In this document: piece by piece, positions 11,896 to 27,110 of the stretch | Layout: the number at the start of each line of letters is the position of its first letter | Numbering within the stretch: position 1 is the stretch's first letter | Made by a program: the position numbers and the translations under genes | Notes under the pieces: model-generated | What the model saw: only the letters and a program-made list of their open reading frames with translations | Told to the model about the DNA's origin: nothing | Database searches by the model: none | From: Syntrophomonas sp. | GTDB lineage: Bacteria > Bacillota > Syntrophomonadia > Syntrophomonadales > Syntrophomonadaceae | Assembly (NCBI GenBank): GCA_016841875.1 | Contig: JAENYG010000001.1 | Coordinates: 139,247-203,246, forward strand | Length of the DNA stretch: 64,000 nucleotides | Direction: 5' to 3'

Positions 11896-12351
11896 TTGAA
11901 GTTATTTTTTATTTTATTAATAATATCTATTTTCTTTATTTATTGGTTTTACTTGTCAATAAAAAAACATCTAGCTAATAGAGATGCTATAAAATTTAGC
12001 TACCTTGGAGGATACCCTGGCATTAAAGGCCCAAAAGTGGTCTTTCTTAGAGATTCTGGGAGTTACCTTGAATTTGAAGGAGTTAAAATTCCAAAGGCAT
12101 CTATAATCGATGTAAAGTTAGTCCCTCGTTCTGCGGTAGGTGGAGCTTTAGCTGGTGCAGCAGTGGGGGCTTTGGTTGCTGGTCCGGTAGGAGCATTGGT
12201 CGGTGGAGCTGCGGCAGCAGGTAGCCCTGGAGCCAATAATGTAATACAGCTATCCTATTCCAAAAATGATACCAATTATGAATTGTTCTTTACTGGTCCG
12301 AATATTCTTAATCAATATCCTTTACTTCAGGGGATGGTTCATAGACGATGA
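11896..12351 (+). CDS. membrane protein with Gly/Ala-rich segment (prophage moron)
   Basis: TTG start behind AGGAG. N-terminal TM helix, then GGALAGAAVGALVAGPVGALVGGAAAAGS. AT-rich codon usage. Confidence 0.5.
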   Translation: MKLFFILLIISIFFIYWFYLSIKKHLANRDAIKFSYLGGYPGIKGPKVVFLRDSGSYLEFEGVKIPKASIIDVKLVPRSAVGGALAGAAVGALVAGPVGALVGGAAAAGSPGANNVIQLSYSKNDTNYELFFTGPNILNQYPLLQGMVHRR

Positions 12352-12505
12352 ACTTTGCAGTAGCAAGCGTGTACATATGGTCGTCGCCACTGAAAGTAAT
12401 TAGCGTGCCTAATGTTCAGTGGAAGATGATTCAGCGGTTGAGAGGCAACGGGTAAAAGCACAGAACCTTATACGCTTGTATTGTTACAGGAAGGGTCTAT
12501 TAGTA

Positions 12506-12757
12506 ATGGCGAATTTTTTAATTAGAATAGCTGTATTAATATATGCTATTATCTTTATTTCGCGAATCTATAATAATGCCGAAAACTTATGGAAAATCAA
12601 ATCTCAAAGGGTGTCTTGGTGGGCAACAGAACCCGCACAAACAGATTATTGGATAAGACTAACGAAGGCATTAAGTATGGCAATGATCATCATATGCATA
12701 TTGCTTTTATTAATGAACATTATAGATTTCATAGAATTCAGCTGCTCTCCTCAATAA
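12506..12757 (+). CDS. small two-TM membrane protein (prophage moron)
   Basis: The internal ATG gives MANFLIRIAVLIYAIIFISRIY... plus a second TM helix, MAMIIICILLLLMNII. Confidence 0.45.
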   Translation: MANFLIRIAVLIYAIIFISRIYNNAENLWKIKSQRVSWWATEPAQTDYWIRLTKALSMAMIIICILLLLMNIIDFIEFSCSPQ

Positions 12758-12972
12758 ATAACAACGAAGGCTATGAATTCAAACGAGCCCTTATTAAACA
12801 GATGGGTAACGAGCATTTTCCCTGGGTGGTCCAAAATTTGACCAGCAAGTGGCCTACATTAACAACGAAATGGTTTATGCCGGAAGCATATCACATTTAC
12901 TATTGTCCATACTGCGGAACCTATATTGCCGGGAATGGCTACGGGAAACCGCCTGCAAGGAATAACGGCTAG
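12694..12972 (+). CDS. hypothetical protein (start uncertain)
   Basis: Only the C-terminal part of the 127-aa track ORF is free of overlap. It has a CPYCG half-ribbon and no convincing RBS. Confidence 0.25.
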   Translation: MHIAFINEHYRFHRIQLLSSINNNEGYEFKRALIKQMGNEHFPWVVQNLTSKWPTLTTKWFMPEAYHIYYCPYCGTYIAGNGYGKPPARNNG

Positions 12973-13172
12973 CTGGCGCCGCAGGATCTGATTAGTTTGG
13001 TTAATATTAACTTGAAGATGATTAAGAGGTTGAAGAGGTAAGACAAGACAAATAACCACCAAATGATATTAAACATAACCTATTAACTTCTTCATTAGAA
13101 GGTTTTTATAGGTGTTTTTTTACCGATGTCATTTTTTTTTGCTATGCTCAAATACCTTACCCGCTATACATA

Positions 13173-13236
13173 AAAAGCTCACCCCAGCATACACATATAC
13201 ACTATGGCGGTGTGCGGATGAGCTTTTACTTTTACG
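13173..13236 (+). terminator. putative intrinsic terminator closing the repressor/moron transcription unit
   Basis: Long imperfect hairpin AAAAGCTCAcccCAGCATACAC...GGTGTGCggaTGAGCTTTT followed by TTTTACTTTTAC. Confidence 0.45.
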
Positions 13237-13428: not shown

Positions 13429-15360
13429 GTGCCTCGAAATCTGAAAGGATGTTTCAGTTTGAAAAGTATTAATTATTCTGTTAAGGCAAAGGGACATACC
13501 CCTCAATATAGAATGCATAAATATTTTGCACGCCGACCATACAATGTTTTTCGTAATTTGATAGATTATTATACTCAACCCGGCGATATTATCTTAGATT
13601 GTTTTTGTGGTGGTGGTGTTACTATATTTGAATCACTCTATTTAAAGCGTAAAGTAATTGGTGTCGATATTAACCCATTAGCAACTTTCATAACATCTAT
13701 GCAAATTAAACAATATGATTTAAACGACCTTAAGGAGTATTTACACAATTTTATTGATGAAATAAAAGATAAATATATGTTTTTTTACAGGATCGATTTA
13801 GATAATGAATCTGGGATTTTAGAATGGACAGAATGGGCCTATGAGGTATCATGCCCTGAATGTAATTCAACTATTCCCCTAAGCTCCGATTATAAAATTC
13901 GCGATGGCATCTATAGATGCCCAAACGATCAGTGCACTAACAATTCCAAAGGAGTCAAGCGAACTAATTGCAAAGCTCAATCCAGCAGGCCGCTTCGCAT
14001 AAAATATATTTCCGATTCGACAAAACTAGCTATAATTAAAAACCTATCTAATCAAGAATCAGATAACATTATAAAAACAAAAAATACTAAATACATACAT
14101 GCCAATGATATTGTCGATGTGAATATAAAAATACCGCAAAATTGGGATAGGCAGTTTGAGGATTGCTTGGAGCAAAAAGGAATAATCACGTATAAAGATT
14201 TTTTCACAGACCGTAATTATATGGTAAATTTATTAATTTTTAATGATATATTGAAACTCAAGAACACTCTTCCACTCGACATCGTGAATTGTATTTATTT
14301 TATTTTTAGCTCTTCACTACGATATACAAACAACATGACACGAGTCACAGATAACTGGGAAGGTGGAAATCCTACTGCTATGGACAAACACGCTTTTTGG
14401 TTACCCAATCAATATATTGAGACAAACGCAATAAATATATTTGAAAAACGAGCCAAAGCTATTTTAGATGGATTAGCTTACACCAATAAACAAATACCAC
14501 ATAAAATAATTGAAGCATCTGATTTTGCACATCTGAAAGAAGATGCTGATTTTATGATATTAAACCAAAGTTCAAGTTATATACCTATACCGGATAAATC
14601 TGTAAGCGCCGTTATTACTGATCCACCATATGGTAGTAATGTGCAATACGGAGAACTGTCTACAATATGGAATACATGGTATATGAAATATAAGACTTTA
14701 GATTCATTTATTTATAATGATGAAGAAGCAGTTATAAACAGAAAAGCTAAATTCGAAGGTTCAAAAAATACAAAAACCTATGAAGAAATTCTTTATACAA
14801 TCTTTAAAGAATGCCATAGAGTCCTAAAAGATGATGGCTATCTTGTTTTTACCTTCAATAATAAAAACATAAAAGTATGGATGGCTATTCTTCGTGCTGT
14901 CGCAAGAGCTGGTTTTTATTTACCTGAAGATGGAGTAATATTTCAGGACTTTATTCAATCATATAAAAATACATCTCATCTAAAATACCCTGGTAACATT
15001 CATGGTGATTTTATATACTCGTTCAGAAAAATATATAAACAAAAACCAACGAAAACCTTTACAGACAAACTTGTTGATATTATTGATGATCGACTCAGAC
15101 AAACAATAAATGAATTATTTACAGAAAATTCATATTATTCCACTACAGTTCTATATCAAATGATATTTTCAAGTTTAGCAAACGTTTTGATGGAATATGT
15201 ACTAAGTGATATAACTCAATCTAACGAAAGTATTATATCGGAATATGAGAAATATTCTGATAAATATATTTATGAGACTTTGAAAAAGTATTTAATTTTC
15301 GATGGAGAGCATTGGTATACAAAGGGAGTATCTATTATATATGATAAAAACATTAAATGA
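13429..15360 (+). CDS. DNA methyltransferase M1, N6A/N4C class, motif I before motif IV, DPPY catalytic motif
   Basis: HKYFARRPYNVF then FxGxG (DCFCGGGVT) and GVDINPLA near the N-terminus. A Cys4 insert follows (CPECN...CPNDQC). Catalytic ITDPPYGSNVQYG at nt ~14611. An alternative TTG start at 13459 sits behind GAAAGGA. Very AT-rich. Confidence 0.8.
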   Translation: MPRNLKGCFSLKSINYSVKAKGHTPQYRMHKYFARRPYNVFRNLIDYYTQPGDIILDCFCGGGVTIFESLYLKRKVIGVDINPLATFITSMQIKQYDLNDLKEYLHNFIDEIKDKYMFFYRIDLDNESGILEWTEWAYEVSCPECNSTIPLSSDYKIRDGIYRCPNDQCTNNSKGVKRTNCKAQSSRPLRIKYISDSTKLAIIKNLSNQESDNIIKTKNTKYIHANDIVDVNIKIPQNWDRQFEDCLEQKGIITYKDFFTDRNYMVNLLIFNDILKLKNTLPLDIVNCIYFIFSSSLRYTNNMTRVTDNWEGGNPTAMDKHAFWLPNQYIETNAINIFEKRAKAILDGLAYTNKQIPHKIIEASDFAHLKEDADFMILNQSSSYIPIPDKSVSAVITDPPYGSNVQYGELSTIWNTWYMKYKTLDSFIYNDEEAVINRKAKFEGSKNTKTYEEILYTIFKECHRVLKDDGYLVFTFNNKNIKVWMAILRAVARAGFYLPEDGVIFQDFIQSYKNTSHLKYPGNIHGDFIYSFRKIYKQKPTKTFTDKLVDIIDDRLRQTINELFTENSYYSTTVLYQMIFSSLANVLMEYVLSDITQSNESIISEYEKYSDKYIYETLKKYLIFDGEHWYTKGVSIIYDKNIK

Positions 15361-16690: not shown

Positions 16691-16708
16691 AAACATTTTT
16701 CTAATCAT

Positions 16709-19579
16709 TTACAAGATTTTATTCACATACAATGCTTTAACATCTTCAGCATAACCATTCAATGCTGCATCTTCAATTATTTTCGTAGAGTTGAGTAGAT
16801 TTGTAATTGCATCATTCGAACCTTCAATTTTACTGATTCGATCATTGACTTTTTCGTTTCTTACGAAAATACTATCAAAAAGCCAAAGATGCTTTTTGAA
16901 GTAATTGAATTGATTGTACACTACTGTTCTGGAAGTCCAAATATCTTTAAACGAAAAAGGAAGATCATATTTATTGTTCAAAATATCTAGCACCTTTTTT
17001 TTATTTTCTTCGCTTAATATTTCTATCTCAGGATAAGTTTCTCGTAAATAATTAATCCTAGCTATGGCTTCATTTATGTATATTTCAGTGGTACCCACCA
17101 GCGAATAAATACAGTAAATAAATTCAAATTTAGTTAAATGATCAAATTCTAAAAAAATCTTTAATATAGCTCTGTATGGAAAAATATACGTTTCATTTTC
17201 ATCAATTACAATTTCATGGTATTTTAATAGTTGTTCCCTAAAAATATCATCAAACAAGATATCGTCTTGATATATTATTTGTCCCAGATTTGATAGAGAA
17301 TAAAGCTTGTCTTTTTTCTCTATCAATCCCAATTTTTCAGTATGCGAAACATTATTATGCCCTTTTTTTAACTCTGAATTTGTTTTGATGTCTACAATGC
17401 TATCAAATTTGTTTAGTGTTGGCAGCACCAGACTATCTCTGTATGCATCTTTGTTATAATCTCCAATTGTCCTGAACACCCTTTTATAAGACGATTTACG
17501 TTGTCTTGGTCCTTCAACAATAACAAGTTTTCCTTTAATATTACTTGGGTCTTTATTAACCTCAGCAATACGAAGGCTTAACCCCTCTGCAAAGTCTATA
17601 ATAGCTATCTTAGGTGGCAATATTAGCTTAATTTTTCCGTTAAGCATATCTGTTTTACCCGGTGCAGTATGGCCTTTAGTCGCCGCTTCGTAATTTATAT
17701 CGTTAATACATTCTGCTAATACCTGATCTTGATCTCTTAATGCTTGTAATACACTGTGTAGAGTATTGAACGATTCAGTATTAACCGATGAAAAATCGGT
17801 AGCCTCAGAAGGAATTATGATAGGAATAATAATATATGAATAATCGGTGTTTTTTTCATTAGTCTTTCTCAGAGCCCGTCCTATAGCTTGTATTATATCA
17901 ACCAGAGAATTTTTAGGATCTGCAAAATAGATTGCATCAATTACTGGGACATCTACTCCTTCTATCAGACAACGGGCATTGGATATAATGCCATATTTCG
18001 ACTTTTCAAATTGTTCAAGGATCTTTCTTCTAGAACCTGCTGTCATTGAGCCATTTACATGTCCCAAATATAAATCTCTATCATCCCTTATTTCGTGACA
18101 TATTTGGTCAATAAGAGAAAGTAAAGAGGGCTCGGAGCTGGACCCTTTAATGAAACTTTGGGCTCTCTCCACTGTACTATGAAATGTAATTACTTTCTTA
18201 GCATCAAGTTCATTAAGACATTTGGCTAGCAAAATTTGTTTAAAAAAACCTTGCGCAGTCGCAACGTTTTTGTATTCATCAGTAACATAATAGTTTTTTT
18301 CAATTAATTCTAACAGCTCATCTTCATCCATGCAACAAACCACCACTTTATAGTCTGATATTACTTGTTGCTCTATGGCTTCACCAAAAGAAATTTCCGA
18401 AAACGTCTTCCCGTATAACTTTTCATCATCCATTGAAAAAACGTCATATTCCGTATCCGCTGCAATTTTTTTAACCCTTGCACTCACAATTCGTTCTGTA
18501 GCTGTCATGAAAAGTCGTTTTTGGATCGGAATATATTTATCATACATACCATAAACAAACATTTCGGAGTCTTTTGTACCTGCAGTTCTATGCGCTTCAT
18601 CGAAAATTCCAATATCGAATATAATATCAGGTATCTTAGACATAGCATTTGTCAATGCATCAAGTGATTGATATGTAGAAAATATCACCCTTTTTCTTTC
18701 TTCTGTTTTGGTTAGGAAATCTTCTATATCATTAGGGGATGTAGTAACCGGAATACCTAGATTAGAAACCTTATATTTTGACTCATCATAGTTTGAGCTA
18801 TTAACAACTGAGGTGTCACTGCAAACACAAAGATATGAAAAAGGCTCTGAAGCTTGTTCCATCCATTCTTTTAGAGTTTGTTTAATCAGTGCTAGGTTAG
18901 GTACAATGAACAATATGGTTTTAGCGTTCATTTTTTCATGAATCCATAGTGACGTAATTGTCTTGCCAGTTGCGCAGGCTGCGATAATTTTACCTCTATC
19001 GTTACTTTCAAAACCTGATATTACTTCATTTATTATTTTTTCCTGATGCGGCTTAGGAGTATGTAGTTCATGGTTTTTTATTGCCTGTTCATGTATTAGA
19101 TTATATAAATTTTCAAAACAAAACTTATCTAACTCAATTAACTGATCTACAAGTATTGTGAACTGATGTTTTTTCTTATCTGATGGTATCGGCAAATCAT
19201 AACAATTAGAAAAAATACAACGATAATCTGCATACTCGGATTCAGCCCAAAATGTAGCTAATTCTGAATATGGAGCTGAGACACGACCTGTTCTAAACTT
19301 TGCTTGGTACGCAACAAGTTTACCATCGCGCCTTACTAATACACCATCAACACCATAATCTGTTTTTTCTAATTGCAACTTATCTCTTAAATCATCCGGT
19401 ATATCTTTTTCACGGTATACTACCTCAACATCATATTTCTCTTTATTCAATGTAAAAAAAGCATAAACAAACTCTTCGAAAATATCTCCTTTTTCTTTGT
19501 TATCAACAATAACTTCAATTTTCTTTTCGAGTTCATCCCAATTATAAAACAATTCATCGAAAATGCTATTATATTCCAT
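16709..19579 (-). CDS. restriction-type enzyme: N-terminal PD-(D/E)xK-like nuclease + SF2 (DEAH) helicase + ~280-aa unassigned C-terminal domain
   Basis: Residues 73-95, TDYGVDGV...YQAKF, form a D...QxK nuclease core. Walker A is ACATGKT (aa 201-207). Also FDEAHR, MTATER and QAIGRALR (motif VI). The C-terminal region has no motif I recognise. It is convergent with M1/M2 and co-transcribed with the C gene. Confidence 0.75.
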   Translation of the reverse strand: MEYNSIFDELFYNWDELEKKIEVIVDNKEKGDIFEEFVYAFFTLNKEKYDVEVVYREKDIPDDLRDKLQLEKTDYGVDGVLVRRDGKLVAYQAKFRTGRVSAPYSELATFWAESEYADYRCIFSNCYDLPIPSDKKKHQFTILVDQLIELDKFCFENLYNLIHEQAIKNHELHTPKPHQEKIINEVISGFESNDRGKIIAACATGKTITSLWIHEKMNAKTILFIVPNLALIKQTLKEWMEQASEPFSYLCVCSDTSVVNSSNYDESKYKVSNLGIPVTTSPNDIEDFLTKTEERKRVIFSTYQSLDALTNAMSKIPDIIFDIGIFDEAHRTAGTKDSEMFVYGMYDKYIPIQKRLFMTATERIVSARVKKIAADTEYDVFSMDDEKLYGKTFSEISFGEAIEQQVISDYKVVVCCMDEDELLELIEKNYYVTDEYKNVATAQGFFKQILLAKCLNELDAKKVITFHSTVERAQSFIKGSSSEPSLLSLIDQICHEIRDDRDLYLGHVNGSMTAGSRRKILEQFEKSKYGIISNARCLIEGVDVPVIDAIYFADPKNSLVDIIQAIGRALRKTNEKNTDYSYIIIPIIIPSEATDFSSVNTESFNTLHSVLQALRDQDQVLAECINDINYEAATKGHTAPGKTDMLNGKIKLILPPKIAIIDFAEGLSLRIAEVNKDPSNIKGKLVIVEGPRQRKSSYKRVFRTIGDYNKDAYRDSLVLPTLNKFDSIVDIKTNSELKKGHNNVSHTEKLGLIEKKDKLYSLSNLGQIIYQDDILFDDIFREQLLKYHEIVIDENETYIFPYRAILKIFLEFDHLTKFEFIYCIYSLVGTTEIYINEAIARINYLRETYPEIEILSEENKKKVLDILNNKYDLPFSFKDIWTSRTVVYNQFNYFKKHLWLFDSIFVRNEKVNDRISKIEGSNDAITNLLNSTKIIEDAALNGYAEDVKALYVNKIL

Positions 19580-19598
19580 ATATTCTCCCTATTAAACC

Positions 19599-19848: not shown

Positions 19849-19874
19849 GACTATAAGTCTACAGACGATGAGTA
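19849..19874 (-). promoter_or_regulatory. C-box operator pair upstream of the C gene
   Basis: In the gene orientation it reads TACTCATCGTC-TGTA-GACTTATAGTC. This is a perfect GACT-N3-AGTC box (19849..19859), a TGTA spacer and a degenerate second box (19864..19874), 38 nt upstream of the ATG. Confidence 0.7.
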
Positions 19875-19891: not shown

Positions 19892-19938
19892 GCATAAACT
19901 AGTCCCAGCTTTGCGAACAAGATGGGACTAGTTTATGC
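19892..19938. terminator. 16-bp perfect-stem hairpin at a module boundary (insulating terminator)
   Basis: GCATAAACTAGTCCCA-15 nt-TGGGACTAGTTTATGC. The flanks are T-rich when read on the minus strand (TTACTTTTCTTT). Confidence 0.5.
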
Positions 19939-20164
19939 TTTACACCCACAAAAAGGTTATGAATACTGTTACCGAAAGAGGGATGAGGTTTCTGCTGGGT
20001 AACACCGCTTACCCACACATGATAGTAATAAACAGACCCGCTTCCGTTGTAGGCCCTAGATGGAAAGATGTTCCTAGATTGATTTAGAATTTTACTATAT
20101 ATTTGTTAGATTATGGTGAAAAGGTGTAAAATTAGGTAAGTTAAAATTCCCGGAGGTGCTAAAT

Positions 20165-21517
20165 ATGGCAACAATAGCTCTGTTATCATGTTCAAAATCC
20201 AAGTTACCATATAAAAGCAAAGCGAAGGACTTATATTCACCTAGCCCTTGGTTTCGCAAAGCATATGATTATGCGAAGCAATCTGAAGTAGATAAAATAT
20301 TTATTCTTTCTACTCTATACGGACTGGTTCCAGAAAATAAGGAAATAGAGCCTTACGAGGCAACACTAAATAATGCTTTCGAGTCTGAAAGGAAAGCCTG
20401 GGCTGATAGAATAATCGTTGACCTGTGCAAAGTGGCTGATCTAGAAAATGATACTTTTGTTATAATTGCTGGAAAGAGATATTATGAGTACCTACTGCCA
20501 CATCTAAAACATGTTCAGCTTCCTCTAAAAGGTCTTAGTCTGGGATATTGGGTACCAACACTAAACCAAATGCTTGGGGAAAGCCAGGGGTCTCTAAAAG
20601 AAGTAAAAAGCGTTTCATATGAGCTTCATCAATTGTTTAATTCGTTACTCCGAGTTCAACATCCGTTTAAGCAGGCGCAAATTCCAATGAATGGTATATA
20701 TATAATGTTCGAAGAAGGTGAGAAGTACCAAGGGATGGACAGGATAGTCCGCGTTGGCATTAATATATCACAGAACAGGCTACGGGGAAGGATTAGAGAC
20801 CACTTTTTTGAAAATAAAGACAAGAGTATATTTAGAAAGAATATTGGGCAGGCAATACTTAACCGAGATAACGATGAATATCTTAATATATGGAGTTACA
20901 ACCCCAAAATGAAAGACCCACCGATTCTGGAAAAAGCCGACCCGGATTATCAGTTTATGATTGAAAAGAGGGTATCTGAATACATAAGGAAAAGTATAAG
21001 TTTTGTATTCATACCAGTTGAGGCTAAAAGCGATAGGCTTCGCTTTGAAAACGCCATAGTTGCCACATTAAATAAAGACCCGCTATTCAATCCTGGTATA
21101 ACTTGGCTGGGTAGACACAGCCCTAAACCAGAAATAAGAACTAGCGGTTTGTGGCTCGTACAGGGGCTTAATGGACTCCCAATTACAGCAAAAGAATTTG
21201 AACATATTAAAAAAATGTCAGGAATTAAGATGGAATATAATTCTCCCCCAATAATAAAATCAGTAAGCTTGCTAACTGAAAGGACATTTGCAGAAGAACT
21301 GAATAAGATCCTAGAGCAAGCAAGTCACCAGGGTAAAGAGTACGCGGATGTGATATCAGGAGACCTCCACCGGTTGGTGGGTGGATATCCCGGTGCAAAT
21401 CATCGAATGCCTACTTGCTGCAAGGTAATGTACAGCTATAGGAAAGATACAGATGAGGTACTTTATGCACCTCCAAGCGGCAAAGGTGCTACTTTAAAGA
21501 TAAGATACTGGCTTTAA
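20165..21517 (+). CDS. multidomain GIY-YIG nuclease-family protein (N-terminal alpha/beta domain, central GIY-YIG, C-terminal Cys-motif domain)
   Basis: ATG 20165 lies 8 nt after GGAGG. GIY at track residues 180-182 (NGIYIMF), then RIVRVGI, RLRGRIRDH and RFENAIVATLN (catalytic-Glu helix). The N-terminal ~130 aa recall DUF6884 (from memory). The C-terminus has SGDLHRLVGGYPGANHRMPTCCKVM. Confidence 0.6.
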   Translation: MATIALLSCSKSKLPYKSKAKDLYSPSPWFRKAYDYAKQSEVDKIFILSTLYGLVPENKEIEPYEATLNNAFESERKAWADRIIVDLCKVADLENDTFVIIAGKRYYEYLLPHLKHVQLPLKGLSLGYWVPTLNQMLGESQGSLKEVKSVSYELHQLFNSLLRVQHPFKQAQIPMNGIYIMFEEGEKYQGMDRIVRVGINISQNRLRGRIRDHFFENKDKSIFRKNIGQAILNRDNDEYLNIWSYNPKMKDPPILEKADPDYQFMIEKRVSEYIRKSISFVFIPVEAKSDRLRFENAIVATLNKDPLFNPGITWLGRHSPKPEIRTSGLWLVQGLNGLPITAKEFEHIKKMSGIKMEYNSPPIIKSVSLLTERTFAEELNKILEQASHQGKEYADVISGDLHRLVGGYPGANHRMPTCCKVMYSYRKDTDEVLYAPPSGKGATLKIRYWL

Positions 21518-21537
21518 TTAATTTAAGGAGGGGTTTT

Positions 21538-21882
21538 ATGAATGCAAAAACAGTCTATCCCCTATCTGGAAGAGGTAAGCCCATTACCTATTTTCAGCAA
21601 GGTAATACTACCATAATTAATTGGGGTTCTATGAAATTCAAGATTACTGATGAGCAAGTTAATAACCTTTTGGCAAACTTCTTTACCGATAAAGATAAGT
21701 GGTATTTATTAGGCACAAATATGACAGGTGCTCCAGAGGGTAGCTTTGGAAATTACATTTCTACACACTTTTCTTTAACCCCACGCCACGGCTCTGCCAT
21801 TGCACCCATACTAGTTAATGAGCAGGTATTGGATTATAGGGGGAAGAAGCCCCTAGAAGTTAAAAAACGAGGGAAGAATTAG
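21538..21882 (+). CDS. hypothetical 114-aa protein, partner of the GIY-YIG gene
   Basis: ATG lies 7 nt after AAGGAGGGG and 20 nt after the upstream stop. No recognisable motif. Confidence 0.55.
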   Translation: MNAKTVYPLSGRGKPITYFQQGNTTIINWGSMKFKITDEQVNNLLANFFTDKDKWYLLGTNMTGAPEGSFGNYISTHFSLTPRHGSAIAPILVNEQVLDYRGKKPLEVKKRGKN

Positions 21883-21885
21883 CTA

Positions 21886-22414
21886 CTACCCCAACCCCAC
21901 AAGCCATATCGGGCAATCCAACCCAATCAACGGCAATGTCTCCTTGGCAATATTAAAGTATGCCATGCCGCTTACAGAGCTTTTCCGATGAGCAAAGTAC
22001 TCATAAGGCCCGCTCATGGTAATTTCTATGCCCAAGGCCAATCTCTTCTCTACGTAGGCCATCTTAAACCCGCAGAAGTCTTTGAACATAGACTCTACCT
22101 TCCCAAACTGCACTTTCTACCTGAACTAGGCCATGGCCATAATGTCTAGCAAAATCCGAGTGCCAGTTTGCCTGCAAGGTGCTGGATGTCAGACACAATG
22201 TCCGTTGCTGGCCGGAGCTGCTGCACCGGTAGGCAATGAATCATATGACCATCCGCAGTCTGTTAGCCTTTTGAAAAACATACCGGTTGATATCCTACTG
22301 GGTCGGCTGCCTGGGCATTGATTCGATGGCGCTAACGATCTCACTGAAGAGTCCGGCATCTATGTTATTTACGTATTCTCTTGAGCAGTTGTAAAAGTAA
22401 TGTTCTATTGACAT
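21886..22414 (-). pseudogene. BglII/BstYI-family type II restriction endonuclease, disrupted by frameshifts and stops
   Basis: The pieces lie in three frames. First MSIEHYFYNCSREYVNNIDAGLFSEIVSAIESMPRQPTQ*, then ...LTDCGWSYDS..., then GLVQVE, a 1-nt shift, and VQFGKVESMFKDF...DCPIWLVGLG. The E-V-Q-F core and the PIxLVGL C-terminus match my recollection of BglII. Confidence 0.6.
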
Positions 22415-22422
22415 GGGAGCTC

Positions 22423-23613
22423 CTATAAAGTGGTATATTTCTTTGACCAATACTGCTTAACTAATGTGACTATGTTTTTATTTATATCTTTGAAATCTCT
22501 CTCATATAAATCCTGCATTCTTTTAACTATGCTCTCAACATCATCCCAATCATGAATACTAACTTGCTTAGTATATATTCGGGTGAATTTAGACTGCCCT
22601 TCTAGTGCTTTATTGGGAATCTTAAATACCCCAGCACTGTTGAGGTGTTCCATAAATTTCATCCTGTCTTCAGGGTCGGGAAACGTTCCAACTTCCAAAG
22701 TCAACTGAAGCTTATCATTGCTCTTTTTTTGAAACCAATATATAACCAAGTACTGATCACGAGTGTAGAGGTTATCTGTTGGTACCACTCCTACAAATTC
22801 CTTAGGTACAAACGCAAACAAGTTTGTGCTACTATGAATACGCTCTATATTGTCGTTCTTTTCCAAAAATGATTCAACAGCCTCAGAAAAACTTGTTGTC
22901 ATAGCATATTGTACAATTAAATCAATTGCATCTTTATGTTGAAGGTATATTTTCTTACATAATTCCTTTAATTTTTCATCTTCCATAAGCAGTTCCTCCA
23001 ATGTTTTTAAGTAATATTGAATAAAGTCAGCAACTTTTGCATTAAGACTATCCAAGTGCATTTCTAAAGCAAACTTGACGATCCTATATATTGATTGATG
23101 ACTTAAGGAACAATATTGTTCTGAATCTTCTGGATCGTCCCCAAATTTTGTTAACAGTATAGGTAATATCTTATAGTCAGGGAAATGTTTATTAACAGTT
23201 CTGAGATACTTTTGTAACTGGCCCTTACGTTCTTTGGAATGGATTTTATTTTCAATCAAGATAGCTAATTTACTTGATCTTGATACAGATAATAAATCAA
23301 TATTTTCCCATTCTCTTAGAATTTCCATGTCGTACAAATTAATTAGACTAATGTCATGTACTTCTGGAAAATCTATATTTTTATCATCATTGGTTAACAA
23401 TGTCTCAGTAATGACTTTTTTTATAATATAATCTCCAAATCGATGTGTTTCGTTTGGCGCTAATAGCCAAGATAAAATGTTTGAATGCCTTATTTCCAAC
23501 GAATTCACTTTTAATATTTTAAGAGGATTAAACTCGTTAACTTCTTTCTCAAGAAGTTCAAGGTTTTCGTTATTTACAATGAATTCGTGTAAAACGTGAA
23601 TATTGTTTTCCAC
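22423..23613 (-). CDS. PD-(D/E)XK nuclease-family protein (stand-alone, 396 aa)
   Basis: N-terminal FNPLKILKV...EIRHSNILSWLLAPNETHRFGD, and a core of NIDLLSVSRSSKLAILIENKIHSKERKGQLQKY (D...ExK). Very AT-rich. Confidence 0.7.
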   Translation of the reverse strand: MENNIHVLHEFIVNNENLELLEKEVNEFNPLKILKVNSLEIRHSNILSWLLAPNETHRFGDYIIKKVITETLLTNDDKNIDFPEVHDISLINLYDMEILREWENIDLLSVSRSSKLAILIENKIHSKERKGQLQKYLRTVNKHFPDYKILPILLTKFGDDPEDSEQYCSLSHQSIYRIVKFALEMHLDSLNAKVADFIQYYLKTLEELLMEDEKLKELCKKIYLQHKDAIDLIVQYAMTTSFSEAVESFLEKNDNIERIHSSTNLFAFVPKEFVGVVPTDNLYTRDQYLVIYWFQKKSNDKLQLTLEVGTFPDPEDRMKFMEHLNSAGVFKIPNKALEGQSKFTRIYTKQVSIHDWDDVESIVKRMQDLYERDFKDINKNIVTLVKQYWSKKYTTL

Positions 23614-23799
23614 GCTTTCCCTTCTTTCAAATTATATTATCTAATCTCAATTTCACCACGCTCCTGGAATATCCTGCTATAAAAATGGATTATTTTTCTT
23701 CTATAGACAAATTGTTATATTTTATGGAAGATTGTGGAGGGATGGTGTAGAATTTAACATAATGTTGTGTTCGGACTAAGAATTATGGGGGAGGTATTT

Positions 23800-24306
23800 A
23801 TGCAAGTAGAATTCGATTTAAATAAAGAGGATTACTGGCAATATAATTTATACATTTATTATAAAAGAAAAACAAAGTTCGGTACCTTTAATAAGATCCT
23901 ATTGATCGTATGCGGTTTTTGGTTTTTTTGGATAGGGTTAATCACTGGTTCGTTATTTGGAATGTTGGCCATAATTATTTTTGGCTTTTTATTAATGTTC
24001 ATTCTTATTAAAACTTCTGTATATCTAGCTGTTTCAAACAGTAAGAGCACCCTCGGCAATTATCATATATCCATTGGTCCAGAAGGAGTAAATGCAAAAA
24101 CTCAACACAGAACAATCTTAACAACTTGGTCTGGAATATATGATGTCGCGAGTGATCGCTCTTATATTTATCTCTTTTACGATAATAATTTTGCTCACCT
24201 AATTCCTAAGCGAGCATTTGCCACACCTGATGATGCCCTTAAATTTGAAAAGCTCGCCACTGTATATTGGACCACTAAAGACTTACCCGAAGATGTTGAA
24301 GTATAA
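23800..24306 (+). CDS. YcxB-like membrane protein
   Basis: ATG lies behind GGGGGAGG. MQVEFDLNKEDYWQYNLY..., two TM helices and a C-terminal soluble part, the layout of the YcxB family (from memory). Confidence 0.45.
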   Translation: MQVEFDLNKEDYWQYNLYIYYKRKTKFGTFNKILLIVCGFWFFWIGLITGSLFGMLAIIIFGFLLMFILIKTSVYLAVSNSKSTLGNYHISIGPEGVNAKTQHRTILTTWSGIYDVASDRSYIYLFYDNNFAHLIPKRAFATPDDALKFEKLATVYWTTKDLPEDVEV

Positions 24307-24331
24307 TTCTGATTACCAAAGGAGGTTCCTA

Positions 24332-25918
24332 ATGAGAAAAACTATAATAGTTTTATGTGCTATTTTACTGTGTTTCACCTTTGCTTTACCAGCCCTTGCA
24401 GCACCCACCGTCAATCTTGACGGCCAGCAGCTGTCCTTTGATGTGCCACCTACAATTGAAGACGGCAGAACCCTGGTTCCACTCCGGGCTATCTTTGAAG
24501 CCATGGGAGCAGAAGTATCCTGGGACCAAAATACCCGGACTGCCACGGCAATTAAGGGTGATACCACAGTGGTACTGCAGATCGGATCCACCACACCCAC
24601 AATAAACGGTCAGGTAAAAACACTGGATGTTCCAGCGAAGATCGTTAACGGCCGGACCCTGGCACCATTACGTTTCGTAGGTGAGGCCTTCGGTGGCACG
24701 GTTGAGTGGAATCAAGCCTCGCAGCTGATCTCCATAACTGCAGTTCCAACCTCGGGAACCCCTCCCCCGGCTGCAGCAGATATTTATGTCCACTTCATTG
24801 ACGTTGGCCAAGCGGATGCAATATACATAGAGCTCCCGGATCACAACGATATCCTTATTGATGGCGGCAATCGAGCAGACGGTCCCCTGGTAGTGGATTA
24901 CCTTCAGGGTCAGGGTGTAGATGATATTGAATTACTAATAGCCACCCACCCACATGAGGACCACATAGGAGGCTTACCAGATGTGCTGGATGCTTTTACC
25001 GTAGAGAGCATCCTGGACAGTGGTTATGCAGCCACTACTAACATATATAAAGAATACAGCAGCAAAGCCCAGGCCGAAGGGTGCAGCTGGGTTAGTGATA
25101 ATTACCAGACATACACCTGGGGCGCTGCCACCCTGCAGATTCTAACCGGCAACCAGTCCTGGGGTGATAATGCAAACGATTACTCTGTAGTCTGCCGGTT
25201 GGATGCTGGAGATATAGAATTCATGTTCATGGGCGATGCTGAGACTGAAGTAGAGGATATTCTAACCGGTTCCCTGGACGCTGAAATATTAAAGGTCGGC
25301 CATCATGGCAGCACCTCATCCAGCAGCCTGGCATTCCTCAACAAAGTGGATCCAAAAGTAGCAATCATATCTGTGGGAACCGGAAATACATACGGCCATC
25401 CGCACCAGGAAACGTTGGATAAGCTGCAAAGCATTGGTGCTACCATTCATAGAACAGACCTGGAAGGAACCATTGTGGTGAGCACTGACGGGACTACCTA
25501 CTATGCCGTTAACAATGATACTGATAATACCAATATACAGGTATCCGCAGTACAACCATCTGACCCCGCACCTATCCAAAATCCTGCAGGAAATGCACCC
25601 CCACTAATACCTGATCCATGGGTTGCCATAACAGATATTGACCTTCAGGGAGAAGTGGTAACCATCAAGAATGATTCCGGATGGACGGTGGATATGAGCG
25701 GTTGGTATCTGGTAAGTGTAACTGGCAATCAGACTTATTACTTCCCGGATGGCTTCAGCCTTTCGCCTGGCGGCACAGTTTATGTTACAAGCGGAAAAGG
25801 GGCAGTCGATCAATATCCTACGCACTTAAAGTGGACCGGGTCGTATATATGGAACAATGAAGGGGATCCTGGAAAGCTGTATAATTCCTCGGGGCAATTA
25901 GTCGCGCAATGGCCGTAA
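24332..25918 (+). CDS. secreted protein: signal peptide + two copper-amine-oxidase-N-like repeats + ComEC-type MBL domain + lamin-tail domain
   Basis: ATG lies behind AAAGGAGG. Signal peptide is MRKTIIVLCAILLCFTFALPALA. The repeats are DGRTLVPLRAIFEAMGAEVSWD and NGRTLAPLRFVGEAFGGTVEWN. The MBL domain shows HFIDVGQADA, ATHPHEDHIGG and VGHHGS. The C-terminal EVVTIKNDSGWTVDMSGWYLVS is LTD-like. Confidence 0.75.
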   Translation: MRKTIIVLCAILLCFTFALPALAAPTVNLDGQQLSFDVPPTIEDGRTLVPLRAIFEAMGAEVSWDQNTRTATAIKGDTTVVLQIGSTTPTINGQVKTLDVPAKIVNGRTLAPLRFVGEAFGGTVEWNQASQLISITAVPTSGTPPPAAADIYVHFIDVGQADAIYIELPDHNDILIDGGNRADGPLVVDYLQGQGVDDIELLIATHPHEDHIGGLPDVLDAFTVESILDSGYAATTNIYKEYSSKAQAEGCSWVSDNYQTYTWGAATLQILTGNQSWGDNANDYSVVCRLDAGDIEFMFMGDAETEVEDILTGSLDAEILKVGHHGSTSSSSLAFLNKVDPKVAIISVGTGNTYGHPHQETLDKLQSIGATIHRTDLEGTIVVSTDGTTYYAVNNDTDNTNIQVSAVQPSDPAPIQNPAGNAPPLIPDPWVAITDIDLQGEVVTIKNDSGWTVDMSGWYLVSVTGNQTYYFPDGFSLSPGGTVYVTSGKGAVDQYPTHLKWTGSYIWNNEGDPGKLYNSSGQLVAQWP

Positions 25919-26029
25919 GGATTTAATGGTTTAGAAAGATATGAGGAAAGACTAATCTGATTCGAAAAGAAGGAGCTAGGTATTTATCGTGTGGGGTTTG
26001 CGAACCACAAACCATGAAGGAGAAAAACT

Positions 26030-26905
26030 ATGCGATCTAAAATAATTAATCCTATTACAATTGTAGGTCTATTACTATCGCTTGCAACAGGTTTTATATT
26101 CTGGCGTTTTCAAGGACCTGATTACAAATTGGCTGTAACTAATGCTTTATTGCTATTTTTAATAATATTGGTGCTAAACTCTGTCTATCAGATCGTTTCA
26201 GAAATTAGAATTCAACAAGATATCTTAACTACTGGAATAAATAAACAACACCAAATAACAACCGAATTATTATCTATAAATAATCTGCTTAGCAAAGATG
26301 ATAAAATAAGATCAGATCTAGGCAAAATAGCTAAGGCCTTGGTAAAAATTCATTCAGCAGATCTGCATCCAATCTTTCAAAAACGTGCTCAAGATAATCT
26401 TGATAGGTTTGCTTACTCATTAAGTAAAATTGCTTCAGGCGAAGTTGCTGAAACTATAGGTAATGACTGGCCTCTTTATGCAGTTGTAGATGAAGCCCAC
26501 ACTTCACTAAAGTCAATTTCTTTAGTCTCCACCGCTTGGTGGCTATCTGAAATTGGGCAAAGGTATATTGAGAAGCTGGACCAAGCCATTATAAGAGGGG
26601 TTAAAACATCTCGAATATTCATAATAAAGGATAATGAAGATGATGAAGATTTAAAAAATATTGCATCCATTATGTATGATAAAGGTGTTCATGTCATGAT
26701 GGTTAGGGAATCAAATTTGCCGAAGGAATTACACATCGGGTACATCATATGTGATGAAACATTAGTACAAATTACTGAATATGATTTCAATAAGTATCCT
26801 AAATACCATACCTTTTCATGTAATCCTCAAACGGTACTTAAGGCAATCGAAGATTTTGACAAAGCAACAAGACGGACTATTGACTTTGTACCACTAGATA
26901 ACTAA
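26030..26905 (+). CDS. membrane-anchored hypothetical protein (two N-terminal TM helices, unassigned C-terminal domain)
   Basis: 291-aa ORF behind AAGGAG, AT-rich, no motif recognised. Confidence 0.5.
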   Translation: MRSKIINPITIVGLLLSLATGFIFWRFQGPDYKLAVTNALLLFLIILVLNSVYQIVSEIRIQQDILTTGINKQHQITTELLSINNLLSKDDKIRSDLGKIAKALVKIHSADLHPIFQKRAQDNLDRFAYSLSKIASGEVAETIGNDWPLYAVVDEAHTSLKSISLVSTAWWLSEIGQRYIEKLDQAIIRGVKTSRIFIIKDNEDDEDLKNIASIMYDKGVHVMMVRESNLPKELHIGYIICDETLVQITEYDFNKYPKYHTFSCNPQTVLKAIEDFDKATRRTIDFVPLDN

Positions 26906-27110
26906 TTTTTTAGCCTATCATTTAGTTTATAATCAGGATGTTCCTCTCTTTATTCCCAAACACACGTTCTCCTGTTTTCCCCTTTCTGATATCATATATA
27001 CAAATCCATCTAAATACTAAAGGAGTCCTGCCATGCCCACTACTGAAATACATTCTCTTATTCACTTTCTTTCTCTGCTATGATATAAACAAGGCATGGA
27101 GGGAAGCAAT

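What the first reader, a model, noticed from the sequence alone, without database searches (positions are those of the whole stretch)
11896..27110. 15-kb mosaic cargo island wedged between the prophage repressor and its integrase
About 15 kb between the CI-like repressor (ends 11873) and the serine integrase (starts 27111) is unrelated to phage propagation.

Contents, in order:
- three small membrane-protein morons;
- an R-M-like module;
- a GIY-YIG two-gene cassette;
- a dead BglII-family endonuclease;
- a lone PD-(D/E)XK nuclease;
- a YcxB-like / secreted nuclease-like / membrane-protein trio.

Segments ~13.1-19.9, 22.4-23.7 and 26.0-26.9 kb look far more AT-rich than their flanks. That is by eye, not computed. 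Gene orientation flips at least five times, and strong hairpins sit at module joints (13173-13236, 19892-19938). This pattern suggests a phage-borne defence hotspot assembled by successive insertions.
Basis: partly seen in the sequence, partly recalled or inferred. Interest (0 to 1): 0.6.

Follow-up and report, generated by a model that had tools for sequence, protein, structure and literature searches.

The report
Prophage defence-gene hotspot, repressor to integrase
The 15 kb between a prophage's repressor and its integrase is a swap-slot for anti-phage genes, because four related elements hold quite different defence systems between the same anchor genes; it is a well-documented new example of a known phenomenon.

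Summary
Window 11896-27110 lies inside a ~60-kb siphovirus-type prophage. The prophage is bounded by a 24-bp direct repeat at the 3' end of tRNA-Leu(GAG), and the serine integrase is the only recombinase found.

The interval carries:
- a C-protein-controlled R-M cassette: two methyltransferases plus a 956-aa nuclease-translocase like the N-terminal half of Type ISP enzymes;
- a fused PDC-M57 candidate;
- a BglII-family pseudogene (one stop, three frameshifts);
- a PDC-S26 PD-(D/E)XK candidate;
- a YcxB protein, a secreted MBL-plus-lamin-tail protein and a membrane protein.

Composition is truly mosaic. The R-M cassette and PDC-S26 are about 32% GC, the genome is 42.6%, and the MBL gene is 49%.

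Four related lysogeny modules keep the same frame (cro | cI, cargo, MBL, small cargo, serine integrase). Their cargo differs: Type I R-M with an OLD-like ATPase and a Schlafen-like protein, Druantia type I, or an MmeI-type R-M. Swap junctions are resolved almost to the base. Three scars remain: a ghost cI 3' end, the dead BglII gene and a vestigial integrase 5' end.

The island is a new member of a known kind. The split ISP-like R-M cassette is its most novel part.

The parts
11118..11873 (+). cI-type repressor (XRE HTH + S24 peptidase); left anchor of the slot
   Evidence: Pfam HTH_3 9.5e-19 and Peptidase_S24 2.6e-21. 57% aa identity to the cI of relatives L025 and L038.
11896..12351 (+). 151-aa small protein with one N-terminal TM helix and a Gly/Ala-rich zipper-like hydrophobic segment; function unknown
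   Evidence: Hydropathy scan. No significant family hit.
12419..12757 (+). 112-aa protein with two TM helices; function unknown
   Evidence: No family hit.
12589..12972 (+). 127-aa ORF with no TM helix that overlaps the previous ORF by 169 nt; a doubtful gene, or one with a later start
12955..13038 (+). Ghost 3' end of a second cI allele, a scar of an immunity-region swap
   Evidence: It encodes ...LAPQDLISLVNINLKMIKRLK, 85% identical to the last 26 aa of the relative's cI. 79% nt identity to L025:14561-14663.
13173..13236 (.). Hairpin with flanking T/A runs at the left edge of the R-M cassette
   Evidence: dG -21.5 kcal/mol, z = -3.2.
13429..15360 (+). Methyltransferase M1 (643 aa) with FxGxG and DPPY motifs; probably m6A
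   Evidence: Pfam N6_N4_Mtase 3.1e-27. PADLOC MTase_II and PglX-like hits. Motifs read. 53% identity to the M1 of the Mu-like phage cassettes.
15302..16690 (+). Methyltransferase M2 (462 aa) with FxGSG and SPPY motifs; probably m4C or m6A
   Evidence: PADLOC MTase_II 8.1e-72 over the full length. Motifs read. 51% identity to the M2 of L021 and L022.
16709..19579 (-). R subunit (956 aa): Mrr-type nuclease, SF2 ATPase, disordered linker and a folded C-terminal domain of ~250 aa
   Evidence: PDB LlaBIII 4xqk, E 1.7e-67 over aa 14-630. Foldseek E 6e-31. Family profile E 3.3e-100. Model pLDDT is 85-95 for aa 700-956. All family-invariant catalytic residues are present.
19599..19811 (-). Controller (C) protein, 70 aa, directly upstream of R
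   Evidence: PADLOC Control_protein 2e-25. HTH_3 1.1e-15.
19849..19874 (-). C-box operator: TACTCATCGTC-TGTA-GACTTATAGTC
   Evidence: Read directly; it lies 38 nt upstream of the C-gene ATG.
19892..19938 (.). Near-perfect hairpin of about 20 bp at the joint between the R-M cassette and PDC-M57
   Evidence: dG -31.4 kcal/mol, z = -8.0, 0 of 200 shuffles as stable.
20156..21517 (+). Single-gene PDC-M57 candidate: DUF6884 (YaaA-like DNA-binding domain), the PDC-M57B domain and a C-terminal extension of ~100 aa
   Evidence: PADLOC PDC-M57A 1.9e-45 and PDC-M57B 1.8e-67. Pfam DUF6884 6.4e-38. A homologue lies in a defence island of genome G011. The fused form is common.
21538..21882 (+). 114-aa ORF of unknown function; not a conserved partner of PDC-M57
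   Evidence: No family hit. Absent from L011 and L012.
21886..22414 (-). BglII-family pseudogene; an anchor gene that is intact in one relative
   Evidence: 82% nt identity to the intact gene in L030.
22423..23613 (-). PDC-S26 candidate (PD-(D/E)XK, PDDEXK_4), a 1.2-kb single-gene insert
   Evidence: PADLOC 2.9e-81. Pfam 1.6e-23. It sits in the ~30-bp spacer that is uninterrupted in L030.
23646..23763 (+). Conserved promoter-like linker of ~110 bp found upstream of plus-strand cargo genes in relatives
   Evidence: 85-87% nt identity to two copies in the relative. The core TATGGAAGATTGTGGnGGnATGGnGTAGAAT lies upstream of five different genes.
23767..24306 (+). YcxB-like protein with two TM helices, inserted between the linker and the MBL gene
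   Evidence: Pfam YcxB 1e-10. TM helices. The linker and the MBL start are adjacent in L030.
24323..25918 (+). Secreted protein: signal peptide, Cu_amine_oxidN1 'stalk', ComEC-type MBL domain and lamin-tail domain; the conserved inner anchor
   Evidence: Pfam hits. NCBIfam ComEC_Rec2 1.4e-37. 86%, 82% and 71% aa identity in the relatives.
26030..26905 (+). 291-aa protein with two N-terminal TM helices and a soluble domain of ~230 aa; function unknown; it fills a second, small variable slot
   Evidence: no family hit. Relatives have a ParE-like toxin pair, 175 aa + DUF7662 + ExoD, or a 238-aa gene here.
27019..27083 (+). Vestigial 5' end (RBS, ATG at 27033, first codons) of the integrase type carried by the relatives; a scar of integrase replacement
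   Evidence: 81-87% nt identity to the pre-integrase segment of L030, L033 and L038.
27096..28631 (+). Large serine integrase; right anchor of the slot
   Evidence: Pfam Resolvase, Recombinase and Zn_ribbon_recom. It is the only recombinase found in the element.
28606..28629 (.). attR core; the identical 24-bp copy (attL) lies at contig C14:107846-107869, outside the window
28613..28694 (-). Host tRNA-Leu(GAG), the integration target
   Evidence: ARAGORN. Rfam tRNA 47.8 bits.

Best explanation
Window 11896-27110 is the accessory part of the lysogeny module of one ~60-kb siphovirus-type prophage. The prophage is integrated by a large serine integrase into the 3' end of tRNA-Leu(GAG), probably in a Syntrophomonas-like host.

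In this phage lineage the stretch between cI and int is a hotspot. A few conserved anchors stay in place: cI, a small BglII-family gene, a ~110-bp promoter-like linker, the secreted MBL gene and the segment just before int. Self-contained cassettes are exchanged between them.

Cargo in this phage:
1. A mobile 6.4-kb R-M cassette. M1 (DPPY motif) and M2 (SPPY motif) probably each methylate one strand of an asymmetric site. R resembles the nuclease-translocase half of a Type ISP enzyme. It probably finds unmodified sites through its own C-terminal domain, translocates with ATP and cuts with its Mrr-type nuclease. A C protein acting at a C-box delays R expression when the phage enters a new cell.
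2. Two single-gene nuclease candidates, PDC-M57 (fused form) and PDC-S26.
3. Membrane and secreted proteins of unknown role.

Because this module is the part of a prophage that is transcribed in the lysogen, these genes most likely protect the lysogen against other phages and foreign DNA, and they travel with the phage.

Shown: the prophage borders, the gene identities, the mosaic composition, different cargo between shared anchors in relatives, the junctions and the scars.

Inferred: expression during lysogeny, anti-phage activity, the R-M mechanism and its site asymmetry, and homologous recombination at the anchors as the exchange route.
For: One element:
- Terminase, portal, major head protein, tape measure, tail, holin and amidase lie to the left of the window.
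- Replication and recombination genes occupy window 1-10950.
- The 24-bp direct repeat occurs on the contig only at C14:107846 and at window 28606.
- There is no tyrosine integrase on the contig. The tRNA is real.

Defence content:
- PADLOC and Pfam hits.
- R matches LlaBIII and LlaGI.
- The C-box was read directly.
- AbiD sits at the other end of the prophage.

Foreign origin:
- GC and tetranucleotide outliers.
- R has no homologue in 125 genomes of the host's order.
- The M1-M2-R unit is collinear, at 51-57% aa identity, inside two Mu-like phages. There too it is more AT-rich than its flanks.

Variable slot, shown by four relatives:
- L025/L030: cI, OLD-like ATPase, Schlafen/AlbA_2 protein, intact BglII-like gene, Type I R-M, MBL, ParE-like toxin pair, integrase.
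- L033/L035: Druantia type I, then MBL with a lamin-tail domain.
- L038: phage early genes, cro, cI, an MmeI-type R-M, MBL, integrase.
- In the relatives the cargo is 30-40% GC and the anchors are 48-50%.

Junctions and scars.

Baseline: the repressor-to-integrase gap is 8 bp in Clostridium phage phiCT453B and about 2 kb in Moorella phage MCACPph1, against 15.2 kb here.
Against: - There is no functional evidence of any kind.
- PDC-M57 and PDC-S26 are only candidate systems in PADLOC.
- About a third of the interval has no assignable function: the small ORFs, the 114-aa ORF, YcxB and the 291-aa protein. The MBL protein has a predicted fold but no known role.
- The relatives are few and metagenomic, and they are diverged (cI 57% aa). 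For two of them the phage nature rests on cI/cro and the integrase only.
- No close relative of the whole phage was found.
- Consensus promoter and terminator scans are at chance level, so the classic promoter-gene-terminator layout of a moron is not demonstrated.
- An R-M system may persist as a selfish addiction module rather than as a benefit to the host.
Confidence: 0.85

Rival explanations
1. The 15 kb and the serine integrase form a separate integrative defence island. It inserted in tandem next to a prophage that has no integrase of its own, so it is not phage cargo.
For: tRNA-Leu(GAG) is a busy integration site. One Syntrophomonas MAG (L004) has a remnant of this integrase type plus a second serine-integrase element there. 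Another (L028) has a tyrosine-integrase island at the same tRNA. The resident integrase was itself acquired by replacement.
Against: Only two copies of the 24-bp core exist on the contig, and they flank the whole 60 kb. No other recombinase was detected in the prophage. cI and int are co-oriented, as in a normal lysogeny module. L038 shows phage early genes, cro, cI, cargo, MBL and int contiguous on one contig.
Confidence: 0.06
2. The cargo serves the phage or itself rather than defending the lysogen. The methyltransferases would protect phage DNA from host restriction. The R-M pair would act as an addiction module that stabilises the prophage. The remaining genes would be lysogenic-conversion or neutral passengers.
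For: R-M systems are known addiction modules and phages often carry orphan methyltransferases (established knowledge). The conserved member of the slot is a secreted MBL protein with a stalk domain that the host genome encodes many times, which looks more like a conversion factor than a defence gene. One former member, the BglII-like gene, has decayed.
Against: R is intact, with every family-invariant catalytic residue, and is under C-protein control. In the relatives the same slot holds Druantia, Type I and MmeI-type R-M systems and an OLD-like ATPase. These are defence systems and have no known role in phage propagation. This reading overlaps with the best explanation rather than excluding it.
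Confidence: 0.08
3. The mosaic composition is a by-product of gene-specific constraints and not of horizontal acquisition.
For: The small ORFs, PDC-M57, YcxB and the integrase are not statistically different from the genome in tetranucleotide usage.
Against: The R-M cassette lies at z = 5.1 with GC3 of 21-26%. It is absent from the host's order and present in unrelated phages with the same low GC. PDC-S26 and YcxB sit exactly where a relative has uninterrupted sequence.
Confidence: 0.01

Closest known systems
Defence hotspots of temperate phages and satellites (P2/P4 hotspots; PMC13586616, Moura de Sousa et al. 2026)
   Same: A fixed position between conserved core genes. Related elements carry unrelated defence systems. 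The same cassette turns up in other kinds of mobile element. Cargo is compositionally foreign.
   Different: The host is a Gram-positive-type, syntrophic anaerobe and the phage backbone is different (siphovirus, serine integrase). The slot lies inside the lysogeny module. A pseudogene and two gene-fragment scars persist here, whereas that study reports that pseudogenes are rare. Nothing here has been tested experimentally.
Superinfection-exclusion and other accessory genes between integrase and repressor in lactococcal and streptococcal temperate phages (PMC7693887, PMC3952083)
   Same: The same genomic position in the lysogeny module, including small membrane proteins directly after the repressor.
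   Different: Those intervals hold one to three small genes. Here the interval is 15.2 kb with complete multi-gene systems. Whether the small membrane proteins here exclude phage is unknown.
[quoted passage not shown]
   Same: R shares the Mrr-type nuclease and SF2 translocase half (aa 14-630, E 1.7e-67; Foldseek E 6e-31). The conserved nuclease and ATPase motifs are present.
   Different: Type ISP enzymes are single chains with a fused gamma-class adenine methyltransferase and a target-recognition domain. Here R lacks both and has another ~250-aa C-terminal domain. There are two separate methyltransferases of the N6_N4 family and a C protein.
C-protein-controlled Type II R-M systems (C.PvuII, C.AhdI class)
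   Same: A 70-aa HTH controller directly upstream of R, and a C-box of the GACTnnnAGTC-TGTA-GACTnnnAGTC type.
   Different: The controlled nuclease is an ATP-dependent translocase, not a Type IIP enzyme. The homologous cassettes in Mu-like phages have no called gene in the ~180-bp gap upstream of R, where the C gene sits here.
PADLOC candidate systems PDC-M57 and PDC-S26
   Same: Strong full-length model matches. A PDC-M57 homologue lies among GmrSD, a UvrD-like helicase and BrxC/D-like genes.
   Different: The A and B parts of PDC-M57 are fused here, a form that is common. Neither candidate has a published test that I could find.

Membership tests
Phage-borne defence hotspot (variable cargo slot) | Located inside a bona fide mobile phage genome with defined ends | tested here: met
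   Structural, lysis and replication genes are present. The 24-bp att repeat pair flanks 60 kb. There is one integrase.
Phage-borne defence hotspot (variable cargo slot) | Same position between conserved genes in related elements, with different gene content | tested here: met
   Four relatives share cI, MBL and the pre-integrase anchors and carry different cargo.
Phage-borne defence hotspot (variable cargo slot) | Cargo consists largely of recognised defence systems | tested here: met
   This phage has an R-M system with a C protein, PDC-M57 and PDC-S26. The relatives have Type I R-M, an OLD-like ATPase, Druantia type I and an MmeI-type R-M.
Phage-borne defence hotspot (variable cargo slot) | Cargo protects the lysogen against phage infection | not testable with these tools
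   This needs cloning and plaque assays.
Type ISP R-M enzyme | N-terminal Mrr-family nuclease followed by an SF2 helicase-like ATPase | tested here: met
   LlaBIII 4xqk, E 1.7e-67 over aa 14-630. Family profile E 3.3e-100. Foldseek E 6e-31.
Type ISP R-M enzyme | Methyltransferase and target-recognition domain fused in the same polypeptide | tested here: not met
   R is 956 aa and has no methyltransferase domain. Two separate methyltransferase genes lie next to it.
Type III R-M system | Res subunit with a C-terminal nuclease and a single Mod subunit that carries the specificity | tested here: not met
   The nuclease is N-terminal (Mrr_cat_2 at aa 53-118). There are two methyltransferases.
C-protein-controlled R-M system | Small HTH controller upstream of R, plus a C-box operator | tested here: met
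   Control_protein 2e-25. The C-box at 19849-19874 was read.
GIY-YIG nuclease superfamily (middle domain of the 453-aa protein) | Significant sequence or structural match to GIY-YIG domains | tested here: inconclusive
   No Pfam or NCBIfam hit. No PDB hit with a 26-sequence profile. hhalign against one GIY-YIG protein gave probability 0.1. The model has pLDDT 95, but no Foldseek hit reaches E <= 0.001; only non-significant GIY-YIG-named hits appear. The motifs GIY...RVG...R..H...E and a beta-beta-alpha...beta-alpha topology are compatible.
PDC-M57 (PADLOC candidate) | Both the A (DUF6884) and B components are present | tested here: met
   A 1.9e-45 at aa 4-138 and B 1.8e-67 at aa 152-354, in one ORF. 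The DUF6884 motifs CxxxK and LSAxxG (PMC11701544) appear here as CSKSK and LSTLYG.
PDC-S26 (PADLOC candidate) | Full-length match to the single-gene model | tested here: met
   2.9e-81 over aa 4-383 of 396. PDDEXK_4 1.6e-23.
BglII-family endonuclease (PF09195) | Homology to the family | tested here: met
   The composite is 74% identical to intact PF09195 proteins, E 2.6e-82.
BglII-family endonuclease (PF09195) | Intact reading frame | tested here: not met
   One in-frame stop and three frameshifts relative to P0121.
Moron (promoter + gene + terminator unit) | Own promoter and terminator flank each inserted gene | tested here: inconclusive
   Consensus scans are at chance level. However, a conserved promoter-like linker precedes cargo genes, a C-box promoter region is present and hairpins flank the R-M cassette.

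The most novel reading that the evidence does not exclude
The M1-M2-R(-C) cassette would represent an uncharacterised class of ATP-dependent R-M system. It would have a Type ISP-style Mrr nuclease-translocase that carries its own ~250-aa winged-helix-like recognition domain, remotely AlwI-like in some family members, instead of a fused methyltransferase and target-recognition domain. It would be partnered with two separate methyltransferases (DPPY and SPPY) that each modify one strand of an asymmetric site. The R family has at least 3,000 members, annotated only as 'DEAD/DEAH box helicase'. The cassette moves as a 6-kb AT-rich unit between unrelated temperate phages. In addition, the conserved ~110-bp promoter-like linker and the other anchors would be the recombination substrates that drive cargo exchange in this phage lineage.
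Probability: 0.4. Interest if true: 0.65.

Novelty: new member of a known kind. Interest (0 to 1): 0.45.

Why it matters
Defence hotspots in temperate phages have been mapped mostly in enterobacterial P2/P4 and lambdoid phages and in mycobacteriophages. This example extends the pattern to prophages of syntrophic, anaerobic Firmicutes.

It gives an unusually legible case. The anchors are conserved, the insertion points are resolved nearly to the base, and three recombination scars survive. Together they show that cassettes, the immunity gene and even the integrase were each replaced separately.

The slot can also be used for discovery. The genes of unknown function in it and in its relatives are good candidates for new defence functions. 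In this phage these are the 151-, 112-, 114- and 291-aa proteins, YcxB and the MBL-LTD protein. In the relatives they include the 199-, 267- and 491-aa genes.

Carriage on a phage adds context to two untested PADLOC candidates and to a widespread but unstudied R-M architecture.

Tried and rejected
Searches for close relatives of the whole phage all failed:
- megablast of the early region against 50,697 phage records found nothing;
- integrase and cI against IMG/VR, GTDB genomes and JGI metagenomes found relatives of the integrase of at most 45% identity, and for cI only its 64-residue HTH part at 44%;
- exact-protein look-ups were empty.

I tried to measure the cI-to-integrase distance in 14 related genomes by locating PF07508 and PF00589 hits near cI homologues. 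Only one cI homologue had an integrase on the same contig within reach, so this was uninformative.

The way in came from using the inner anchors, the BglII-like gene and the MBL gene, as probes.

Other dead ends:
- Consensus promoter and terminator scans were no better than shuffles.
- The GIY-YIG idea was not verified and remains inconclusive: no Pfam, NCBIfam, PDB-profile, hhalign or Foldseek (PDB and BFVD) match was significant.
- The C-terminal domain of R had no PDB sequence match. The full-length Foldseek search was dominated by the motor half. RE_AlwI is hit by only 4 of 34 family members and not by this protein.
- The metagenome record behind L025 is not held for whole-record search, so I walked along it with exact-protein look-ups instead.
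- The tandem-island rival was rejected because no third att copy exists.

Full report
**Where the interval sits**

The window is contig C14:139247-203246 of a 3.97-Mb genome with 42.6% GC. To the left of the window the minus strand encodes an amidase, a holin-like protein, tail proteins, a 1304-aa tape measure protein, a major head protein, a portal and a large terminase. Window 1-10950 continues with replication and recombination genes: DnaD/O-like, RecT-like, SbcC-like and an MBL hydrolase.

At 11118-11873 the plus strand encodes an XRE-HTH + S24 repressor. At 27096-28631 it encodes a large serine integrase. Housekeeping genes such as typA follow.

A 24-bp direct repeat, ATCATGGTGTCGGAGGCGGGACTT, occurs on the contig only at C14:107846-107869 and at window 28606-28629. 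The right-hand copy is the 3' end of a genuine tRNA-Leu(GAG) (ARAGORN; Rfam 47.8 bits). The left-hand copy is followed on the host side by that tRNA's terminator.

No tyrosine integrase lies on the contig. The 15-kb interval is therefore internal to one ~60-kb prophage and lies between co-oriented cI and int, the classic lysogeny module. An AbiD gene sits at the opposite end of the prophage.

**What the interval contains**

- 11896-12972: a 151-aa protein with one TM helix and a Gly-zipper-like segment, a 112-aa protein with two TM helices, and an overlapping 127-aa ORF without TM segments.
- 13429-19811: methyltransferase M1 (643 aa, FxGxG and DPPY motifs) and methyltransferase M2 (462 aa, FxGSG and SPPY motifs), both of the N6_N4 family. 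Convergent to them are a 956-aa R protein and, upstream of it, a 70-aa controller protein (PADLOC Control_protein 2e-25).
- 19849-19874: the C-box TACTCATCGTC-TGTA-GACTTATAGTC, 38 nt before the C-gene ATG.
- 20156-21517: one ORF that matches both PADLOC PDC-M57A (the DUF6884 domain) and PDC-M57B.
- 21538-21882: a 114-aa ORF with no family match.
- 21886-22414, minus strand: a BglII-family pseudogene. A read-through composite is 74% identical over its full length to intact 177-aa PF09195 proteins. The gene has one in-frame stop and three frameshifts.
- 22423-23613, minus strand: a full-length PDC-S26 / PDDEXK_4 protein.
- 23767-24306: a YcxB protein with two TM helices.
- 24323-25918: a secreted protein with a signal peptide, a Cu_amine_oxidN1 stalk, a ComEC-type MBL domain and a lamin-tail domain.
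- 26030-26905: a 291-aa protein with two TM helices and a soluble domain of unknown family.

**The R protein**

R matches the nuclease-plus-ATPase half of the Type ISP enzymes LlaBIII and LlaGI:
- E 1.7e-67 over aa 14-630 for the single sequence;
- E 3.3e-100 for a 34-sequence family profile;
- Foldseek E 6e-31.

R has no methyltransferase domain. After a low-confidence linker (aa 596-695) it carries a confidently folded domain of about 250 aa (pLDDT 85-95). This domain has no PDB sequence match. Only 4 of 34 family members touch the RE_AlwI model.

The family has at least 3,030 members, named only 'DEAD/DEAH box helicase'.

**The PDC-M57 protein**

The DUF6884 motifs CxxxK and LSAxxG described in PMC11701544 are present here as CSKSK and LSTLYG.

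There is no Pfam or NCBIfam hit. A 26-sequence profile finds nothing in the PDB. A pLDDT-95 model has no significant Foldseek match in the PDB or BFVD.

The conserved GIY...RVG...R..H...E pattern and the beta-beta-alpha...beta-alpha topology are compatible with that fold, so the question stays open.

The 114-aa ORF that follows is not found next to the homologues in genomes G011 and G120. The fused architecture is common.

**Composition**

| Segment | GC |
|---|---|
| Genome | 42.6% |
| R-M region 13.1-19.9 kb | 31.8% (1st percentile of 1-kb genome windows) |
| PDC-S26 | 31.7% |
| YcxB | 33.9% |
| o291 gene | 33.3% |
| BglII-like pseudogene | 46.9% |
| MBL gene | 49.2% (96th percentile) |

Tetranucleotide distance to the genome is extreme for the R-M cassette (z = 5.1; 0.3% of random segments are as distant). 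It is raised for PDC-S26 (z = 2.7) and for o291 (z = 1.8). The small ORFs, PDC-M57 and the integrase cannot be distinguished from the genome.

Both hairpins are real. The one at 19892-19938 is a near-perfect stem of about 20 bp (dG -31 kcal/mol, z = -8). Together they bracket the R-M cassette. Real genes change strand four times.

**Is it a variable slot?**

Direct relatives of the phage could not be found with the integrase or cI. The inner genes worked as probes.

*Relative 1* (JGI Ga0074127_100002; loci L025 and L030) reads, in the window's orientation:
- cro, then cI (57% aa identity);
- an OLD/AriA-like ATPase and a Schlafen/AlbA_2 protein;
- an intact BglII-like gene (82% nt);
- 199-aa, HTH_73 and 177-aa genes;
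- a Type I R-M system (HsdR, HsdS, HsdM);
- the MBL gene (86% aa);
- a ParE-like toxin gene with a 146-aa neighbour;
- a serine integrase only 23% identical to the one here, then a comM-like host gene.

*Relative 2* (Ga0074127_100001 / LNQE01001822; loci L033 and L035) has an HTH repressor-like gene and a complete Druantia type I system (DruA 2.4e-137; DruE with E-value 0). It continues with the MBL-LTD gene (82% aa), then 175-aa, DUF7662 and ExoD genes, and then the conserved pre-integrase segment.

*Relative 3* (Logan SRR31227858; locus L038) shows the whole frame on one contig. It has phage early genes, one stretch of which is 79% nt identical to window 9046-9131. It then has cro, cI (57% aa), 267-aa and 491-aa genes, a 907-aa MmeI-type R-M enzyme and the MBL gene (71% aa). 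A 238-aa gene, a serine integrase and a comM-like gene follow.

*A fourth trace* is a Syntrophomonas MAG (L004). It keeps an MBL 3' fragment fused to an integrase 3' fragment that is 94% identical to the one here, next to the same tRNA-Leu, followed by another serine-integrase element.

In all relatives the anchors are 48-50% GC and the cargo is 30-40%.

For scale, the repressor-to-integrase distance is 8 bp in Clostridium phage phiCT453B and about 2 kb in Moorella phage MCACPph1. These are the best-matching annotated phages found with the integrase as query.

**Mobility of the R-M cassette**

R has no homologue at E <= 1e-20 in 125 genomes of the host's order.

Its two closest homologues (57% and 55% identity) each sit with the same two methyltransferases in the same convergent order. 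They lie inside Mu-like transposable phages, marked by Mu F, DUF3164, a MuB-like ATPase and a portal. All three genes are collinear. The cassette's GC there is 28.5-29.6%, below the 35-41% of its flanks.

No gene is called in the ~180-bp gap upstream of R in those copies, where the C gene sits here.

**Junctions and scars**

- PDC-S26 occupies exactly the ~30-bp spacer between the start of the BglII-like gene and a ~110-bp element. The two are contiguous in relative 1.
- YcxB lies between that element and the MBL start codon, which also abut in relative 1.
- The element has the core TATGGAAGATTGTGGnGGnATGGnGTAGAAT. It precedes five different plus-strand genes across the relatives. It looks like a portable promoter, and it could also supply homology for exchange.
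- Window 12955-13038 encodes the last 26 residues of a different cI allele, 85% identical to the cI of relative 1. It lies 1.1 kb downstream of the resident cI. The resident cI and the small ORFs therefore arrived by a replacement that cut into an older cI.
- Window 27019-27083 keeps the RBS, the ATG (27033) and the first codons of the integrase type found in the relatives. It now reads as a 16-codon ORF in front of the unrelated resident integrase. The integrase, and with it the attachment site, was swapped too.
- The BglII-like gene is decaying in place.

**Mechanism**

Inferred from established knowledge of the families: the lysogeny module is expressed in the lysogen, so these cassettes would arm the lysogen.

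M1 and M2 would modify the two strands of an asymmetric site. R would detect unmodified sites through its C-terminal domain, translocate at the expense of ATP and cleave with its Mrr-type nuclease. The C protein would delay R expression after entry into a new host.

PDC-M57, a DNA-binding DUF6884 domain fused to a putative nuclease domain, and PDC-S26 would act as single-gene nucleases. AbiD at the other end adds abortive infection.

**Verdict**

The concept is established: P2/P4 hotspots (PMC13586616) and accessory and superinfection-exclusion genes between integrase and repressor in lactococcal phages (PMC7693887). This is therefore a new member of a known kind. The split ISP-like R-M cassette is a possible new variant that deserves its own study.

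Noticed in passing
window 28600-28631 and contig C14:107846-107900 (left of the window): The integrase stop codon TGA (28629-28631) straddles the end of the att core. In the excised (attP) form the ORF would run 8 codons further (...GVGGGT then LLNQYHAG). The integrase C-terminus therefore differs between the prophage and the free phage. Targeting a tRNA 3' end with a 24-bp identity is unusual for a large serine integrase.
   Followed up: partly
L004:5520-11784 and L028:17526-18705: The same tRNA-Leu(GAG) is an integration hotspot in Syntrophomonas MAGs. One has a remnant of this integrase type (94% nt) followed by another serine-integrase element. The other has an island with a tyrosine integrase.
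   Followed up: partly
contig C14:108336-109208 (locus L007:8336-9208), left end of the prophage: An AbiD abortive-infection gene (PADLOC 7.1e-97) lies between the lysis genes and attL. This is a second cargo position at the other end of the prophage.
   Followed up: partly
window 23646-23763; also L025:9861-9969 and 12502-12620, and genome contig C13:54554-54651: A ~110-bp promoter-like element is repeated upstream of different cargo genes in related elements. One further copy (79% identity) lies elsewhere in this genome, on contig C13.
   Followed up: partly
window 20606-21235 (aa 151-360 of the 453-aa protein): The PDC-M57B domain folds with very high confidence (pLDDT 95, pTM 0.90) yet has no significant structural neighbour in the PDB or BFVD. 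It is either a strongly elaborated GIY-YIG-like fold or a new nuclease-like fold.
   Followed up: partly
L021 and L022 (metagenomic Mu-like phages): Both Mu-like phages carry the M1-M2-R cassette between their lysis and head-morphogenesis genes. They also carry a pair of Dam-like methyltransferases, and one has an S-adenosylmethionine synthetase. They appear heavily invested in DNA methylation.
   Followed up: no
genome contig C5:30538-31305: A second cI homologue (45% aa identity) lies on another contig with no integrase detected nearby. It may belong to a second prophage or a remnant.
   Followed up: no
window 29265-30029 and many loci on contigs C22, C84, C90 and others: The Cu_amine_oxidN1 'stalk' domain of the prophage MBL protein is encoded dozens of times in the host genome. 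The phage protein seems to use a host-typical cell-surface anchoring module.
   Followed up: no
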